From NCBI GenBank assembly GCA_000004985.1, contig GG738885.1: a DNA stretch of 64,000 nucleotides; one strand, 5' to 3'. The stretch comes from Naegleria gruberi. Taxonomy: Eukaryota. The notes under the pieces were generated by a model. It made no database searches and was not told the DNA's origin. It saw only the letters and a list, made by a program, of their open reading frames with translations. The position numbers and the translations under genes are program-made. Of this stretch, positions 56,982 to 64,000 are shown piece after piece. Numbering within the stretch: position 1 is the stretch's first letter; the number at the start of each line of letters is the position of its first letter.

Positions 56982-59900
56982 ATGACATCATTAGATTGGC
57001 TGCAAGTGAGCGGAATTCGTTCCTTCGATCACACAAGTGGAGCACAAACGATCAAATTCTTCAAGCCTTTGACAATTATTTTGGGAGCCAATGGTGCGGG
57101 AAAGGTTTGTACTAGTAAAATTATATAAATATTAATATTAATATGCGATCAAATATTAAATTATGATAGACGACAATTATTGAATGTTTGAAATGTGCAA
57201 CAACAGGTGAATTGCCACCAAATTGTGATCGTGGTAAATCATTTATACACGATCCCAAAGTTTCGGGTGATTCGGAAGTAAAAGGTCAAATTAGGCTTCA
57301 ATTCAAGTCTGGCAACAAGAAACGATACATCACAGTAAGAAGTTTTCAAGTTTCACAGAAAAAGAAAACAACTCAGTTTAAACAATTGGAGGCTGTACTA
57401 CAGACTAAAGGAGAAGATGGAGAAGTGAAGAGTAATAGTTACAAATGTACAGATATGGATAAATTGATTCCGGAATGTATGGGTGTTAGCAAAGCTATTT
57501 TGGAAAATGTTATATTTTGCCATCAGGAAGAAGTAAATTGGCCACTCAGTGACAGTTTATCTTTAAAGAAAAAGTTGGATGATATTTTCTCTAGTACCAG
57601 ATATTCTAAAGCTTTGGAGGCTATTAAAAAAACAAAGAAAGAGATAGGACAACAACTTTCGGATTATGAAAAGGAATTGGCTGTAGCTGAAACAGAAAAA
57701 TCTCAATCTGTCAAGCTGAAAAAAGAAGCTGAATCAGAAATTGTTAAACTACAAAAATTGAAGGAAAGTATGGAAAAATATGAAACAGAAATGCAAGAAA
57801 TTGGTGATAAGGTATCAAAATATGAAGGCGTTATCGAAAAAATCAATAGCTTGAAACAAAAATTCACTGAGAAGGATACTCAAAAGAAAATGCTTCAAAA
57901 GCAAGTAGCTGAGCTCTATGCCGGTTTGGAACAAGAATTCACTGAGACTGACCAGGAGGTGGAAGATTTTGAGAAAAATTTCAAGAAACAACTCGAGAAC
58001 TTGAACCAGAGCAAGATAACCACCGAAAGCTCACTGAAAACAAATGAAGTAACAAAGAATTCTGTGAACAAGGAATTGAATGGCCTGAATGAAGAATTGG
58101 GAAAGCTCAAGTCCTTTAAGGAAACTCATGAGAGTAAATTAATGGATATCAGTGCTGAAATATTCACTTTAGCTGAGAGATACAAGATTTCTGGATATGA
58201 CCAATTGCCACTTAATGAAAGTCAAATTGACGCATTTTCTAAAGTGATTTCAAAACTTTATGAAGATAACAAGAAAGCTTTTGATACCTTGAAAATGCAA
58301 CACAAGTCAGAAGTCGATCAACTTACTAAGGAAATGAACGTTGCCCACCAAAAGAAGGAAACCGTTCTCAAACAAGTTAAAGTTACAGAGCAACTCAAGA
58401 CGAAATATGAGAGAGAAGAAAAAGATTTGAAAGAAAAACTTAGTAAGATTAATACTAATGCAGCTATTGTTAAGAAGGCAGAAGAAGAATTCCAACAATT
58501 AAAAACAGCACTGAAAGAAAAGCAAGAAAAGAAAGAATCTGAAAGTTTCAAAAATCAAATAGAATCAAATAATAAGCAATCTAAAGAAATCACTCAAAAG
58601 ATTTCCTCCATCAATAAGGAACTCACATCCAGAGAAAAAGAGAAGGAAATTAGTTTCAAGATACAAAATCTGAAGGAAGAACTCACCAAACACAACTCTT
58701 CCCTAGAAGAAAAGCTTCTAGACCTTAAAGGACGTTACGAAACTGTTTTAGGTGTTCAAGAAAATGATGTAACAACAGCCAACATTGAACCAAAGATCAA
58801 AAACCTTATTAAGAAAAGCACGGAACAAGTTAATGCTAAAAACGTTTCTATTCAATCGACAGAGAAGAGCATTTCTGTAACCAAATCTAAACTTGAATCT
58901 ATTACAAACCAGGAAAAGAAGATTAAGAGAGACATTGAAACCAAAGAAAAGAATGTCGAATCAGTGCTTCCTTCTGGTAAGTCTTGGGAAGAGGCTATGA
59001 GTGAAGCTGAAGAAGCTGTTTCTGATTTAAGAAACGAGGTCAGTTTGACAGAGGCTCTCAAAATGTGTTATGAAAACTTTGTAAAGCACGCTCGTACAAA
59101 CCATCAATGTCCTGTTTGTGAAAGAGGCATGAACACAGAAGAATGCTCTACTTTTGAAAGTTTACAAATGACCAAGCTTGAACAAACTCCAAAGTTTCTC
59201 CAAAAGAAGAAAGCCAAGTTAGAAGTGGCTATCCAACAACAAGAAAAGATTAGAGAAATCAAACCAATTATTACAACTATCCAAAACTTGAAGAGTAAGG
59301 ATCTTCCAGATGCAGAAAAAGAACTTGCATCTCTGAATGAAGAAGTACAAAGACTCAACTCTATTGTTTCTAAATTCACACAAGAACTCGATACTCTCAA
59401 GCAAGAAGAAAAGAAAGCCAACGATCTTTTACCTAGTGTTGCTGATTTGAAAATCTTACAATCAGCTATTCGTTCAAGTCAACAACGTTTAACTGAGCAA
59501 GAAAATGAACTCAAAAAACTTGGACTTCCAGAGGATCTTGTACCATACGAAGACTTGAAGCGAAATCTTGAAGAATCCCAAACTTTGAGAGAGAAACTTG
59601 CCCAACAAAATCAAAACTTACAAGTTGAATTGGAGAAAGCCCAGAGTGAGTTAACAAAACTCAATAACGAGGTTCACCAAAAGCAAAATTTATTACAAAA
59701 ATTACAATTTGAATTGAAGGAAATGGAAAGATTAAATGAAAGTCTTGCACAAAAACAAAAAGATTTGCAACAAACAATCACTGATATTGAAAAACAACAA
59801 CAAGATATACCTACCCTTGAAAAGACGGAGCAAAATCTTAACACCTCACTAACAGAATTGAAAGAAAAGCATAGAAAGGAAGAATACATCATGGAAGGTA

Positions 59901-60997
59901 CAGTCACTGAGTATCAACAAGAGCTTTCAAAATTGAATGCCCTGACAATGGAAATTAGGAAGTACAGAGAAAGAAACGTTGAAGACAATCTCAGTACTGT
60001 TCAAATGAAAATTGCCAAACTAGAGGTAAGATTGGAAGAAAATAAGAAGGAATATGAAACCCTTTCCGAGAATCTCAAAAAGTACAACAGCATGCTTGAA
60101 AAGCAAAATGTTATCAAAAAGAATATTGAATCCAATCTCAAATACAGAGCAAAGAAGAAGGAAAATCAACAAGTATCAGATGAATGTGATAAACTCTCTG
60201 CTGAAATTGAAAAAATCACAGGTAGTGATGCATCCTTAGATAGTTACCAAGATATCAAATCCCTCAAAGAGAGACAAACAGAATTATCGAACAAGAGATC
60301 ACAAATATCAGGTGCCAGAAGTACCATAAAGAATAGAGTTAAATCTATTCAAGATGATCTTAACTCTGATCAATACAAGGATATCGATAACAAGCACAAA
60401 TCCTTATTGATCAAACTGGTAACTACCAAGCATGCTGTAGAAGATTTGGATAAATACTCAAAAGCTTTGGAAAAGGCATTGACAAAATACCATAGTATGA
60501 AAATGGCTGAAATTAATGAAATTATCAAAGAACTTTGGCAAAAGACTTACAGAGGTAACGATATTGATACCATTTGCATCAAATGTGATACTGAAACAGA
60601 AAATAGTAGAAAGACTTATAATTACCGAGTTGTAATGGTAAAAGGTGATGTGGAATTGCAAATGAGAGGACGTTCTTCTGCTGGTCAAAAAGTATTGGCC
60701 TGTTTGATTATTAGATTAGCTCTTGCTGAAGCATTCAGTATTGACTGTGGTATTTTGGCTCTTGACGAACCAACAACTAATCTGGATTTGGACAATATTA
60801 ACAGTTTGGCCGAATCTTTACGATTCCTGATTGAAGATAGAAGAAAATTGTCAAACTTCCAACTCATTGTCATTACTCACGACGAAGAGTTTGTGAAAAA
60901 GCTTGGAAGAGCAGAATTTGTGGAAAATTACTATAGAATTTCTAAGGATCCAAGAAATGGAGGTTCCATGATTGAACAACAAAAGATTGCTGAATAA
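56982..60997 (+). CDS. RAD50: DNA repair protein RAD50, two exons
   Basis: Exon 1 is 56982..57104 (MTSLDWLQVSGIRSFDHTSGAQTIKFFKPLTIILGANGAGK, the Walker A P-loop). A 65-nt GTTTGT...GATAG intron (57105..57169) follows. Exon 2 begins TTIIECLKCATTGELPP. The protein has a long coiled coil with a zinc hook (HQCPVCERG), and a C-terminal signature/D-loop region (SAGQKVLACLIIRLALAEAF, LALDEPTTNLD). Confidence 0.92.
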
Positions 60998-61341: not shown

Positions 61342-62217
61342 ATGATCAACGACTTTTACTCTTCAAATCAATTCAATAGAGGGGTGGCAACACAGATCAG
61401 CGTTGCTACTAATGCTAATAACAACAATTTTGGGTATTCTGGTTTCAGATCATCGGTTCCTTCCTCAATATTTAGTCACAATGTGAGTCAGGCATTAGAT
61501 AGTAAGACATGTCCTATTGGTCAATCTCAAATAGTACAAGAATTAACTCTGCTCCATTCACTACTCGTCCAATATTTGAAAAACAATACTTCACCAACAT
61601 CGTCAACATGTTCTTCCAATAATAGTGTATGTTTCACCACACCAACAAAATATTCAATTGGGAGTGATTCAATGAATTTTGCATGTGGTAATAGATTCAC
61701 ATCCAGTTCTTATTCATCTGAGTCATCCATTTCCAATCCACTCCTAATGAGCAGTAGTAGTGCTACTTCACCATATGGTGGATGTTCAAGTCCTGTCAGA
61801 TCATCCATTGCAACAACTTCATTCTCTTCACCGACACACATCCAACGAACATTTAGCAATTCGAATTTCCAATCATTTTCATCAACACCACTCAGTTCCA
61901 TGAGTGAATACGAGGAGAGAATTTCCAAACTAGAACAATTAGTCAAACAAATTCTCAGTTTAATTTATAGAGGCGATTATAAATCACCAGCAACAGATAA
62001 CAAGTCAAGCTCACAAGTTGTTAAACTTGATTCTACTAACTCAATCAAACAATTACTAACCAGTAAAATTAAGGAAACCTATCAATTAGATATGGAACCT
62101 CTCAAACAAATAGTTGCCTCAGTTGTTCATCATGAACCAAAACGATTAAATATGGGATATGATATCATCTTCCAAATGAAAACTGAGTTGACGTATTTAA
62201 GTCAATTGTGTAAATAA
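61342..62217 (+). CDS. Ser/Thr-rich hypothetical protein
   Basis: The 291-aa ORF starts on an ATG after an A-run. It is low-complexity S/T/N-rich with a short C-terminal helical region. No family was recognised. Confidence 0.4.
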   Translation: MINDFYSSNQFNRGVATQISVATNANNNNFGYSGFRSSVPSSIFSHNVSQALDSKTCPIGQSQIVQELTLLHSLLVQYLKNNTSPTSSTCSSNNSVCFTTPTKYSIGSDSMNFACGNRFTSSSYSSESSISNPLLMSSSSATSPYGGCSSPVRSSIATTSFSSPTHIQRTFSNSNFQSFSSTPLSSMSEYEERISKLEQLVKQILSLIYRGDYKSPATDNKSSSQVVKLDSTNSIKQLLTSKIKETYQLDMEPLKQIVASVVHHEPKRLNMGYDIIFQMKTELTYLSQLCK

Positions 62218-62222
62218 ACAAT

Positions 62223-63138
62223 TTAATTAAATAAGAATTTCAAAATGAATCCACAAATAATTATTCCAATAGCGATCAGAAAAACCTTCAATCCAAATGT
62301 AGAAGCATGTTTGGCACATCTATCCACAACTTTGAAAGTTTCCTCTTTCAAATATGTCTTATCTTTACAATTGTCAATTACAAAATTACTTCTTCTAGCT
62401 TTCTCTTCAACTGGAAGTTGAGATTTAATTCTTTGCAAAGCTTCCTCTTCACTATATCCATTTCTACTCATTAGCCATTGTAACTGTCTTTCATCTGATG
62501 TTTTAATACAAACTATTGTCGAAACAATATATTTAAAAACTTTGGTTTCGAATAAAAGAGGTAATTCCACAAAACACAAAGTTTCCTTTCCAATTCTTGT
62601 CATGGATTTGAAAAATTCTTTAAATATTCTAAACATTATTTCTTTAAATATCTCCATATGTGTGGCTGAATTAATCATTTTCCTAACCTTAACATCTTCC
62701 ACAAATCAACTCAACTCAATCCACAATTTACCTACCTTTAAAAACAGCAGCACTCAACTTGGCTCTATCAATTGTTTTCCCATCATGATTGAAAATATCA
62801 ACTCTCTCCCCTGTTTCACTATCCAAATAACTTTCAAAAAACAATTTTACAGTTTTGTAACATTTAGATTCGGGTGAGTAGATGGAGTGAGCAATTTCAT
62901 CACTATCAATAATGACAACATGATATTGATCGGAATAAATTTCACCATATTCCCTCAAATATTGTGTTATAGTTGTCTGTATATTCATCATGTAAATAAT
63001 TACAACAATTAATTGTTGATATTAATAGTAATTTACCTTTCCTAAATATTCCGAAATTAAATAAATTGTTGTTGATCAAATGATGCTTGTTTCTTACCTA
63101 CCACATGATATTCCTCCAGTAACACCAATTAATTTCAT
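62223..63138 (-). CDS. Dephospho-CoA kinase (CoaE/DPCK) with a C-terminal TM anchor; four exons including a candidate 5-nt micro-exon
   Basis: Exon 1 is 63138..63102 (MKLIGVTGGISC + G). A 60-nt GTAGGT...ATTTAG intron follows. The candidate micro-exon GAAAG (63041..63037) follows, then a second 60-nt GTAAAT...TATACAG intron. Exon 3 runs 62976..62736 (TTITQYLREYGEIY...AAVFK + G). A 40-nt GTAGGT...GGAAG intron precedes exon 4 (62695..62223). Only this path gives the in-frame P-loop GVTGGISCGKTT. The exon 3 and 4 sequences are collinear with CoaE. Confidence 0.75.
63037..63041 (-). other. Candidate 5-nt micro-exon (GAAAG) encoding part of Gly and the Lys of the DPCK P-loop
   Basis: The micro-exon is flanked by an AG acceptor (ATTTAG) and a GTAAAT donor, with 60-nt introns on both sides. 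Without it no canonical GT-AG path keeps the Walker A motif in frame. Confidence 0.5.
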
Positions 63139-63423
63139 TTTTTCAAATTATTAAAAACAGAACTATTTCTAAATTTTTTCTAAAGTCTTTGAAATTGAAT
63201 TCACAAATAGTAATCCATCCTGGGTGCTGATTAGAGTTTATTAGATTCATGCAAAAATCTAAGTGTCTTGTGTTAAATCTATCAGGTTTGAATGTGTTCA
63301 ATCTTCCTAGTATCTTAATTATCTTAATGCCAAATTATTCTCTCTCTTGACGTATCGGAAAGTGTTTGATTGTAATTGAATCGGTCAATCTTGTTTACAA
63401 TAAACAAATAAATAATAAAAAAA

Positions 63424-64000
63424 ATGGAAGAAGAACTGCCAGCCATTGTACTCGATATAGGATCAGCATTTACAAAAGCTGGATTTGCAGGTGATGATTA
63501 TCCACGTGGATCCGAACCAATGCCCACACTCGTTGGTCTTCCAAAGTCTAGTGTTGGAGTGCAGGAGACTGCTGGAGATGTGGCCTTCCTCAGACGTTAT
63601 CAATTTAGAATAGTTCATCCAGTGAAAAGAGGTTTAATTCAGGATTGGGATTGTTTGGAGAAATTATTATATTATTCATATTGGACATGGTTGAGATCAC
63701 ATCCGAAAACTTATGGTGTGTTGTGGAGTGAATCAAGTTTGAAATTGGATAGAAAAAAGATTACTCAATTGATGTTTGAAAAGTTTGAAGTACCTGCTTT
63801 TCATTTGGTCAATCAAGGAGTTTTGGCATTGATGGCAACTGGACGAACGAATGGAATAGTTTTGGAGGTAGGAGATGGATGTTCACAATCTATTCCAGTT
63901 GTGGAAGGGTATGCATTGAGACATGCAATAATGGAAGTGGATTTTGCTGGATACGATTTGACAAGGTATTGGATGGAGAGTGTTGGAGCTAGTTCTGAAT
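63424..64000 (+). CDS. Divergent actin-like / actin-related protein (5' portion; continues beyond the window)
   Basis: MEEELPAIVLDIGSAFTKAGFAGDDYPR.. ILEVGDGCSQSIPVVEGYAL matches the actin-fold phosphate-1, connect-1 and phosphate-2 regions. Identity to conventional actin is low. The ATG at 63424 follows an A-run. Confidence 0.75.
   Translation, partial: MEEELPAIVLDIGSAFTKAGFAGDDYPRGSEPMPTLVGLPKSSVGVQETAGDVAFLRRYQFRIVHPVKRGLIQDWDCLEKLLYYSYWTWLRSHPKTYGVLWSESSLKLDRKKITQLMFEKFEVPAFHLVNQGVLALMATGRTNGIVLEVGDGCSQSIPVVEGYALRHAIMEVDFAGYDLTRYWMESVGASSE

What the first reader, a model, noticed from the sequence alone, without database searches (positions are those of the whole stretch)
62977..63101. 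Candidate 5-nt micro-exon supplying the Walker A Gly-Lys of dephospho-CoA kinase
Exon 1 (MKLIGVTGGISC+G) and the next long exon (TTITQYL...) cannot be joined in frame by any single canonical GT-AG intron. A 5-nt segment GAAAG (63041..63037), bounded by an AG acceptor and a GTAAAT donor and flanked by two 60-nt introns, restores the P-loop GVTGGISCGKTT exactly. Such tiny micro-exons are rare and usually mis-annotated.
Basis: inference. Interest (0 to 1): 0.7.

Follow-up and report, generated by a model that had tools for sequence, protein, structure and literature searches.

The report
5-nt micro-exon in Naegleria CoA kinase
A real five-base exon, kept in at least four Naegleria-type amoebae, supplies the essential ATP-binding lysine of the last enzyme of coenzyme A synthesis; it is a neat but ordinary example of a known kind, and a sister species' public annotation already includes it.

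Summary
On the minus strand, a dephospho-CoA kinase gene starts at 63138. Exon 1 (63138-63102) and the TTITQYL exon (62976-62736) are 125 nt apart. The only splice model that keeps the Walker A loop uses GAAAG (63041-63037) as a 5-nt exon between two 60-nt GT-AG introns. This gives GVTGGISCGKTT and a 251-aa protein (Pfam CoaE, 112 bits).

Chance is unlikely: 45 of 20,000 dinucleotide shuffles of the gap give any P-loop-restoring micro-exon. Three other Naegleria-clade sequences have the same 5-nt exon at the same codon position. Their flanking introns cannot be aligned and vary from 38 to 73 nt. One of them carries a synonymous change (GAAAA). The outgroup Willaertia magna has an intronless gene that reads GGIACGKTT continuously.

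The GenBank protein of N. lovaniensis is reproduced exactly only when the 5-nt exon is spliced in. That annotation was guided by RNA-seq.

No transcript of the window's own species could be examined. The statement that no single GT-AG join is in frame is slightly too strong: three exist, but each deletes P-loop residues. This is a new member of a known kind, of modest interest.

The parts
63102..63138 (-). Exon 1 (37 nt): ATG to TGTG. It encodes MKLIGVTGGISC plus the first base (G) of Gly13.
   Evidence: The alignment to orthologues and to PDB 2IF2 starts at residue 1.
63042..63101 (-). Intron 1 (60 nt, phase 1): donor G|GTAGGT, acceptor TTTAG|G. It contains TTTGATCAAC, a TGAT-type candidate branch motif.
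   Evidence: The GTAGGT donor is invariant in all four species.
63094..63097 (-). Decoy tandem donor, TGTGGTAG|GTAAGA, 4 nt downstream of the real donor. Using it with the micro-exon shifts the frame and gives a stop at codon 27. Paired with acceptors inside exon 3, it gives in-frame products that lack the P-loop.
63037..63041 (-). Micro-exon GAAAG (5 nt). It supplies bases 2-3 of Gly13 (G+GA) and the whole Walker A Lys14 codon (AAG).
   Evidence: It is the only P-loop-restoring model. Chance is 0.2%. It is conserved in L001, L003, L004 and L005.
62977..63036 (-). Intron 2 (60 nt, phase 0): donor AAG|GTAAAT, acceptor ATACAG|A. It contains CATGATGAAT 8 nt upstream of the 3' splice site, another candidate branch motif.
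62736..62976 (-). Exon 3 (241 nt): TTITQYLREYG...KLSAAVFK plus the first base of Asp95. It carries the conserved IDSDEIAH motif.
62696..62735 (-). Intron 3 (40 nt, phase 1): donor AAAG|GTAGGT, acceptor GGAAG|AT. It was placed by homology (AAVFK-D-VKVRKMIN).
   Evidence: The orthologues have an intron of 39-98 nt at the same position.
62223..62695 (-). Exon 4 (473 nt including the TAA stop at 62225-62223). It encodes the rest of the CoaE domain and a hydrophobic C-terminal tail (FLIAIGIIICGFILKFLF).
   Evidence: P0002 is 98% identical over this exon.
63139..63423 (.). A 285-bp divergent intergenic region, presumably a promoter, between the kinase ATG and the ATG of an actin-family gene on the + strand (63424 onward).
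   Evidence: Pfam Actin 154 bits. The promoter function is inferred only.

Best explanation
The window comes from a Naegleria-type heterolobosean amoeba. On its minus strand lies a four-exon gene for a 251-aa dephospho-CoA kinase (CoaE/Cab5/DCAKD type) with a tail-anchor-like C-terminus. Its second exon is a constitutive 5-nt micro-exon, GAAAG. The micro-exon sits between two short (60-nt) canonical U2-type GT-AG introns, each with its own donor, acceptor and TGAT-type candidate branch motif.

Splicing exon 1 + GAAAG + exon 3 gives ...TGT G|GA AAG|ACA ACT..., which encodes GGISCGKTT. So the catalytic Walker A lysine is encoded entirely by the micro-exon.

Five nucleotides cannot hold a 3' splice-site complex and a U1 complex at the same time. 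The two introns are therefore most probably removed one after the other under intron definition. This step is inferred, not shown.

Inclusion is obligatory. Skipping the micro-exon, or using the decoy donor 4 nt downstream, shifts the frame and ends translation after 23-26 codons.

The arrangement predates the split of the sampled Naegleria lineages. The fowleri/lovaniensis-like branch added a further intron, which created an adjacent 11-nt exon. Willaertia has no introns in this gene at all.
For: Shown by tools:
- It is the unique P-loop-preserving splice solution.
- CoaE scores 112.4 bits, against 103.4 and 88.8 for the alternative models.
- The protein aligns without a gap to PDB 2IF2 through MKxIGxTGxIxCGKxT.
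- Only 0.2% of shuffles give any such micro-exon.
- The same 5-nt exon, in the same phase, is present in N. lovaniensis (GAAAA|gtatgt, a synonymous AAG to AAA change), L003 (GAAAG|gtaagc), L004 (GAAAG|gtacgt) and L005.
- The flanking introns range from 38 to 73 nt and are not alignable between species, with z mostly within +/-2.
- All four spliced models give collinear proteins of 249-251 aa with 61-85% identity.
- The Willaertia gene is 735 nt for 244 aa, so it is intronless, and it reads GGIACGKTT.
- The N. lovaniensis CDS built with exons of 26/11/5/241/473 nt is 100% identical to its GenBank protein.
- Skipping and decoy-donor use both give premature stops.
- There is no competing ORF, Rfam hit or unusual RNA structure.

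From the literature:
- The N. lovaniensis annotation used BRAKER1 with RNA-seq, and the median intron there is 80 bp (PMC6125883).
- Sequential removal of the introns flanking a micro-exon is the model discussed for plants (PMC8831610).
Against: - No RNA or cDNA from the window's own species could be examined. A search for the spliced junction in JGI metagenome contigs found nothing.
- No full-length protein at or above 90% identity is in the protein collection.
- The N. lovaniensis record I read is assembly version .2. I could not see its exon table or its RNA-seq hints, so transcript support there is inferred from the method description and from the exact protein match.
- The order of intron removal and the branch points are inferred.
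- The decoy donor AG|GTAAGA fits the general eukaryotic consensus better than the donor actually required.
Confidence: 0.93

Rival explanations
1. The gene is spliced with one ordinary intron and makes a protein without a proper Walker A loop. One candidate pairs the consensus-like donor TGTGGTAG|GTAAGA with the acceptor TATTTGAG|GGA (144-nt intron) to give MKLIGVTGGISCGREYGEIY. Another gives MKLIG|TTITQYL. On this reading GAAAG is simply intron sequence.
For: These joins are in frame, open and use GT-AG. They still pass the Pfam CoaE threshold at 103.4 and 88.8 bits. The GTAAGA donor looks strong. This is the kind of model an ab initio gene finder would probably choose.
Against: Both models delete the invariant Lys and Thr, which are conserved in all five heterolobosean proteins and in the solved kinases. 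They score lower in Pfam. Neither explains why AG|GAAAR|GT persists in four lineages inside otherwise unalignable introns. Neither explains why the intronless Willaertia gene has GKTT at exactly that place.
Confidence: 0.03
2. The micro-exon is real but facultative. Some transcripts skip it or use the decoy donor, giving frameshifted mRNAs that are degraded, so that splicing adjusts the amount of active enzyme.
For: A tandem donor GTAG|GT sits 4 nt from the true donor in all four species. Skipping and decoy use both give early stops. Micro-exons are prone to skipping or intron retention in other organisms (PMC8831610).
Against: There is no transcript evidence at all. GTAGGT is simply a common donor in these genes (6 of 14 introns), so the conserved second GT may be no more than part of the donor consensus. 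The gene appears to be the cell's only dephospho-CoA kinase; only one hit per species appeared. That argues for efficient inclusion.
Confidence: 0.08
3. The locus is a decaying pseudogene, or carries an assembly error, and the apparent micro-exon is a coincidence.
For: Stop codons lie between exon 1 and exon 3 in every frame. The collection shows no annotated protein for this species.
Against: Chance is about 0.2% in a single species, and the pattern repeats in three more. An independent environmental contig, L005, is identical in the micro-exon and in exon 3, with only 7 differences in 882 nt. All the other exons are open and conserved.
Confidence: 0.01
4. The reading frame is restored by a non-canonical mechanism: a U12/AT-AC intron, RNA editing, or ribosomal frameshifting.
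For: Several AT-AC joins are formally in frame.
Against: None of those joins keeps the P-loop. No Lys codon lies next to exon 3, where the intron ends ...TATACAG, so no single join of any type can produce GK-TT. No U12-like donor (ATATCC or GTATCC) is present. The canonical two-intron solution explains everything.
Confidence: 0.005

Closest known systems
Naegleria lovaniensis gene C9374_012577 (GenBank assembly GCA_003324165.2; protein P0001), annotated as hypothetical protein / dephospho-CoA kinase
   Same: It is the orthologue (68% identity). It has a 5-nt exon at the same codon position and phase (GAAAA, L001 3140-3144), the same G|GTAGGT upstream donor, and the same downstream intron positions. 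The public protein sequence requires the micro-exon.
   Different: It has one more intron, which creates an 11-nt exon just upstream, so the P-loop is spread over exons of 26, 11 and 5 nt. The micro-exon's last base is A, not G. Its introns are 50-55 nt. Its neighbouring genes differ: Nup85 lies upstream instead of an actin-family gene.
Ultra-short (1-15 nt) conserved coding microexons of land plants (Yu et al., Nat Commun 2022, PMC8831610)
   Same: These are constitutive, frame-critical internal exons of a few nucleotides inside conserved protein domains, flanked by canonical introns and conserved across species. They are often missing from annotations. The paper reports an adjacent 5-nt + 12-nt pair. 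It also reports intronless copies in some lineages, attributed to reverse-transcriptase-mediated intron loss, which parallels Willaertia.
   Different: The lineage is different (Discoba rather than plants) and so is the gene. The flanking introns here are much shorter (38-73 nt). The plant cases have direct RNA-seq and RT-PCR proof; the window's species has none so far.
Neuronal alternative microexons of animals (3-27 nt, SRRM4-dependent; my own knowledge, Irimia et al. 2014)
   Same: They are very short internal exons that alter or complete protein surfaces.
   Different: They are alternatively spliced, tissue-regulated, usually a multiple of 3 nt, and flanked by long introns carrying enhancer elements. 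The exon here is 5 nt, shifts the frame when it is absent, and is therefore expected to be constitutive.
Dephospho-CoA kinase family (bacterial CoaE, yeast Cab5, animal DCAKD / COASY C-terminal domain; Pfam PF01121; e.g. PDB 2IF2)
   Same: The protein has a full-length CoaE domain, an N-terminal Walker A G-x4-GK[ST] and the D-x-D motif (IDSDEIAH against LDADKLIH).
   Different: It has a hydrophobic C-terminal tail that the bacterial enzymes lack. Its activity has not been tested.

Membership tests
Dephospho-CoA kinase (CoaE, PF01121) | Match to the family profile above the curated threshold over the whole domain | tested here: met
   112.4 bits against a cut-off of 27; profile positions 2-174 of 180. 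PDB dephospho-CoA kinases match at E = 1.7e-18 and below.
Dephospho-CoA kinase (CoaE, PF01121) | N-terminal Walker A loop G-x4-G-K-[ST] | tested here: met
   GGISCGKT at residues 8-15, but only when the 5-nt exon is spliced in. It aligns column for column with GNIGCGKS of 2IF2 and is invariant in the five heterolobosean proteins.
Dephospho-CoA kinase (CoaE, PF01121) | Conserved acidic D-x-D motif after strand 2 (substrate and Mg site) | tested here: met
   IDSDEIAH aligns to LDADKLIH of 2IF2. D38, S39 and D40 are invariant. The role of the motif is from my general knowledge of the family.
Dephospho-CoA kinase (CoaE, PF01121) | Catalyses ATP-dependent phosphorylation of dephospho-CoA | not testable with these tools
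   This needs an enzyme assay or complementation of a coaE/cab5 mutant.
Ultra-short coding micro-exon (15 nt or less) | Internal exon of 15 nt or less, bounded by a canonical acceptor and donor | tested here: met
   tttAG|GAAAG|GTaaat, 5 nt, at 63041-63037.
Ultra-short coding micro-exon (15 nt or less) | Needed to keep the reading frame and a conserved protein motif | tested here: met
   Skipping it gives a stop at codon 24. It is the only model with the P-loop.
Ultra-short coding micro-exon (15 nt or less) | Conserved in position, size and phase in orthologues while the introns diverge | tested here: met
   L001, L003, L004 and L005 all have a 5-nt exon in phase 1. The introns are 38-73 nt and not alignable.
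Ultra-short coding micro-exon (15 nt or less) | Seen in mature transcripts (junction reads or cDNA) | tested here: inconclusive
   No transcript data are reachable for this species; the junction search found 0 hits. Indirect support: the N. lovaniensis model that includes the exon came from RNA-seq-guided BRAKER1.
U12-type / AT-AC intron | Donor ATATCC or GTATCC with a TCCTTAAC-like branch site, giving the correct product | tested here: not met
   No such donor is present. All in-frame AT-AC joins destroy the P-loop.

The most novel reading that the evidence does not exclude
The start of this gene may be a splicing-controlled gate on coenzyme A synthesis. Three introns fall within 42 nt in the fowleri/lovaniensis-like branch, and a conserved tandem donor sits 4 nt from the true one. 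Together these could let the cell switch between productive mRNA and frameshifted, degraded mRNA, for example during encystment or flagellate differentiation. The same locus would also record a recent intron gain inside a P-loop.
Probability: 0.06. Interest if true: 0.55.

Novelty: new member of a known kind. Interest (0 to 1): 0.3.

Why it matters
- **Annotation.** A gene finder that misses this exon would either drop the gene or produce a kinase without its catalytic lysine. The last step of CoA synthesis would then look absent or broken in metabolic reconstructions of Naegleria, a genus that includes the brain-eating N. fowleri and in which CoA-pathway enzymes are sometimes considered as drug targets.
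- **Splicing.** The case shows that a short-intron, intron-defined splicing system in Discoba can faithfully handle a 5-nt exon, and an 11-nt + 5-nt pair in a sister lineage, over long evolutionary time.
- **Intron evolution.** The locus offers a compact test case: complete intron loss in Willaertia, and an extra intron in one Naegleria branch.
- **Limits.** None of this is conceptually new.

Tried and rejected
1. My first model of the last intron (donor 62731, acceptor gttag|G, giving ...VFKGRKMIN..., 248 aa) was replaced by the homology-supported 40-nt intron giving ...VFKDVKVRKMIN....

2. Species identification failed by three routes. Exact look-up of two window ORFs found nothing. The 291-aa neighbouring ORF has a homologue only on the metagenome contig L005. 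RAD50 gave 63% identity to N. fowleri and 56% to Willaertia, with no near-identical annotated protein. I could therefore not check how the reference annotation of the window's own species models this gene.

3. A search for a spliced transcript with a degenerate junction pattern in JGI metagenome contigs gave 0 hits.

4. A search for more genomic orthologues in the metagenome contigs gave 30 loci, all at 23-40% identity. These are distant coaE genes, probably bacterial (I did not check), and no heterolobosean sequence was among them.

5. Literature searches: Naegleria + microexon gave two incidental papers. Naegleria + dephospho-CoA kinase gave none.

6. I tested whether the extra 5' intron of N. 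lovaniensis and L003 arose by duplication or reverse-splicing of intron 1, because both share TCGGAA near the 3' end. The similarity is not significant (z of 2 or less), so the idea is rejected.

7. I looked for a functional RNA or an unusual structure in the introns. There is no Rfam match, and the folding z-score is -0.17.

8. I looked for a competing gene on the + strand. It has only short ORFs and one 111-aa TTG ORF antisense to the exons. I did not check these for homologues.

Full report
**What is in the sequence.** Read on the minus strand, an ATG at 63138 opens MKLIGVTGGISCG and runs into a stop. 125 nt further on, in the same genomic frame, a long open stretch begins with TTITQYLREYG.

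I enumerated every GT/GC-AG and AT-AC single intron, and every two-intron model with an internal exon of 1-40 nt. Exactly one model keeps a Walker A loop:
- exon 1, 63138-63102
- a 60-nt intron (G|GTAGGT...TTTAG|)
- GAAAG at 63041-63037
- a second 60-nt intron (|GTAAAT...ATACAG|)
- exon 3, starting at 62976

Three GT-AG joins are open and in frame: MKLIG|TTITQ, GGISCGR|EYGE and GGISCGS|DEIA. Each deletes the Lys-Thr of the loop.

No Lys codon lies next to exon 3, because intron 2 ends ...TATACAG. So no single join of any splice-site type could produce GK-TT.

**Is it more than chance?** I held the outer donor and acceptor fixed and shuffled the rest of the 125-nt gap, preserving dinucleotide content. 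Only 45 of 20,000 shuffles (0.2%) contained any micro-exon that restores MKLIGVTGG-x(3,4)-GK[ST] with introns of at least 30 nt.

**What the gene is.** The spliced product matches Pfam CoaE (dephospho-CoA kinase) at 112.4 bits. The two best single-intron alternatives score 103.4 and 88.8 bits. The product aligns from residue 1 with the solved Aquifex enzyme 2IF2 (MKRIGLTGNIGCGKSTVAQMF against MKLIGVTGGISCGKTTITQYL), with no gap at the junction.

The closest proteins are from Naegleria lovaniensis (251 aa; 66% by BLASTP, 68% in the alignment) and Willaertia magna (244 aa, 52%). The neighbouring RAD50 ORF is 63% identical to N. fowleri and 56% to Willaertia.

The window is therefore from a Naegleria-type heterolobosean. 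Its GC content of about 33% fits N. gruberi or a relative; PMC9928731 gives 35% for N. gruberi. I could not name the species, and I could not find its own annotation.

Homology also corrected my first model of the last intron. The final model has exons 63138-63102, 63041-63037, 62976-62736 and 62695-62223, introns of 60, 60 and 40 nt, and a 251-aa product.

**Comparative test.** This is the strongest evidence. I fetched the orthologous loci.

| Locus | Source | Micro-exon and splice sites | Flanking introns (nt) |
|---|---|---|---|
| Window | Naegleria sp. | TGTG\|gtaggt...tttag\|GAAAG\|gtaaat...acag\|ACAACT | 60 / 60 |
| L001 | N. lovaniensis | TGTG\|gtaggt...ctgtag\|GAAAA\|gtatgt...gcaag\|ACAACT | 52 / 55 |
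| L003 | Unannotated assembly from run SRR29240419; 85% identical to N. lovaniensis | ...ggaaaag\|GAAAG\|gtaagc... | 56 / 73 |
| L004 | Environmental contig; 61-66% identical to the others | ...gttgcag\|GAAAG\|gtacgt...cttag\|AGTACA (giving CGKST) | 38 / 40 |
| L005 | Environmental contig | Identical to the window here; 7 differences in 882 nt, none in the micro-exon or exon 3 | starts within intron 1; intron 2 is 60 |

The micro-exon is 5 nt, and the intron preceding it is phase 1, in every case. The single change within it (AAG to AAA in N. lovaniensis) is synonymous. The upstream donor GTAGGT is invariant.

The introns themselves are not significantly alignable between species; global alignment z-scores are mostly within +/-2.

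All the spliced models give collinear proteins of 249-251 aa.

The Willaertia gene is 735 nt for 244 aa, so it has no introns. It reads GGAGGGATTGCTTGTGGGAAGACAACG, which encodes GGIACGKTT. This is an independent statement of what the Naegleria mRNA should encode at the junction.

**Is it already annotated somewhere?** Splicing the N. lovaniensis locus with exons of 26, 11, 5, 241 and 473 nt reproduces the GenBank protein C9374_012577 exactly. So a public gene model already contains this micro-exon. That genome was annotated with BRAKER1, which uses RNA-seq intron hints, and the paper gives a median intron length of 80 bp (PMC6125883). The model is therefore plausibly supported by transcripts, although I could not see the hints themselves.

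**How it most likely works.**

Shown:
- Both flanking introns are canonical GT-AG units of ordinary Naegleria size.
- The micro-exon carries bases 2-3 of Gly13 and the whole Lys14 codon.
- Skipping it gives MKLIGVTGGISCDNYNTIFEGIW-stop.
- Using the consensus-like decoy donor 4 nt downstream (TGTGGTAG|GTAAGA) gives ...CGRKDNYNTIFEGIW-stop.

Inferred:
- A 5-nt exon cannot hold complexes on its acceptor and its donor at the same time. The introns must therefore be removed one after the other under intron definition, as argued for plant microexons (PMC8831610).
- TGAT occurs 17 times inside the 14 introns of these orthologues, against 3.6 expected, and is present in 10 of the 14. One copy lies in each intron flanking the micro-exon, so it is a candidate branch-site motif.
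- I found no RNA family match, no unusual fold and no competing ORF.

**Comparison with what is known.**

The protein is an ordinary member of the dephospho-CoA kinase family. The profile match, the Walker A loop and the D-x-D motif were all tested here and met. Activity was not testable.

The exon is an ordinary member of the class of ultra-short, constitutive coding microexons, which is best documented in plants. That work describes the same features: conservation inside protein domains, frequent misannotation, an adjacent 5-nt + 12-nt pair, and intronless copies in some lineages (PMC8831610).

It differs from the alternatively spliced neuronal microexons of animals (my own knowledge). It is not a multiple of three, and it shifts the frame when it is absent.

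I found no paper that discusses microexons in Naegleria or this enzyme in Naegleria.

**Verdict.** What is missing is a transcript from this species. Novelty is a new member of a known kind, and the sister species' annotation already has it. Interest is modest (0.3). The value is mainly for annotation quality, and as a compact example of micro-exon maintenance and of intron gain and loss in Discoba.

Noticed in passing
L001 3027-3144 (N. lovaniensis) and the equivalent part of L003: These two species have an extra intron (GG|gt...acag|T) that the window and L004 lack. It creates an 11-nt exon (TATTGCGTGTG) directly upstream of the 5-nt exon, so the P-loop is spread over exons of 26, 11 and 5 nt, with three introns in 42 coding nt. 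By parsimony this is a gain in that branch. The intron is 80% identical between the two species but is not significantly similar to intron 1.
   Followed up: yes
L002 3001-3735 (Willaertia magna): The orthologous gene has no introns at all (735 nt for 244 aa), whereas the Naegleria orthologues have three or four. This is consistent with wholesale intron loss, or with later gains in Naegleria.
   Followed up: partly
window 63094-63101 and 62728-62735 (minus strand): Both GTAGGT donors of this gene are followed by a second GT 4 nt on (GTAG|GTAAGA, GTAG|GTAAAT). At intron 1 the second donor would be lethal to the reading frame. At intron 3 it can pair with the acceptor gttag|G to give an in-frame variant, ...VFKGRKMIN (248 aa), in place of ...VFKDVKVRKMIN.
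   Followed up: partly
window 63064-63078 (intron 1) and L003 intron 1: An exact 15-mer, TTGATCAACAACAAT, is shared by the window and L003 in the intron upstream of the micro-exon (local alignment z = 6.2). N. lovaniensis, the sister of L003, lacks it. It might be a branch-site region or a splicing enhancer, or convergence in low-complexity sequence. It is unexplained.
   Followed up: partly
all 14 introns of the four orthologues, including window 63042-63101, 62977-63036 and 62696-62735: TGAT is about 5-fold enriched inside the introns (17 observed, 3.6 expected). ATGATGA and TGATCA recur, while the yeast-type CTAAC is absent. This is a candidate Naegleria branch-site motif.
   Followed up: partly
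window 61342-62217 (+) against 62223-62225 (-): A convergent 291-aa ORF ends only 5 nt from the kinase stop codon, so the two 3' UTRs must overlap. The ORF has no Pfam domain, and its only homologue is on the environmental contig L005. In N. lovaniensis a different convergent gene (Metallophos family) ends 4 nt from the kinase stop.
   Followed up: partly
window 63424-64000 (+), compared with L001, L002 and L003 upstream of the kinase: In the window, the upstream neighbour is a divergently transcribed actin-family gene (Pfam Actin, 154 bits) 285 bp away. In N. lovaniensis, L003 and Willaertia the upstream neighbour is Nup85 on the same strand. Local gene order has therefore been rearranged in the window's lineage.
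   Followed up: partly
window 57188-60997 (+): A long ORF encodes RAD50 (63% identical to N. fowleri FDP41_001171). It starts at TTG, so the true N-terminus (about 48 aa by comparison) presumably lies in an upstream exon. In Willaertia, RAD50 and the kinase are on the same contig, about 19 locus tags apart.
   Followed up: no
window 62223-62300 (minus strand), C-terminus of the kinase: All five heterolobosean kinases end in a hydrophobic stretch of about 20 residues that varies in sequence (FLIAIGIIICGFILKFLF in the window). This looks like a tail anchor and suggests a membrane-bound enzyme. It was read from the alignment only.
   Followed up: no
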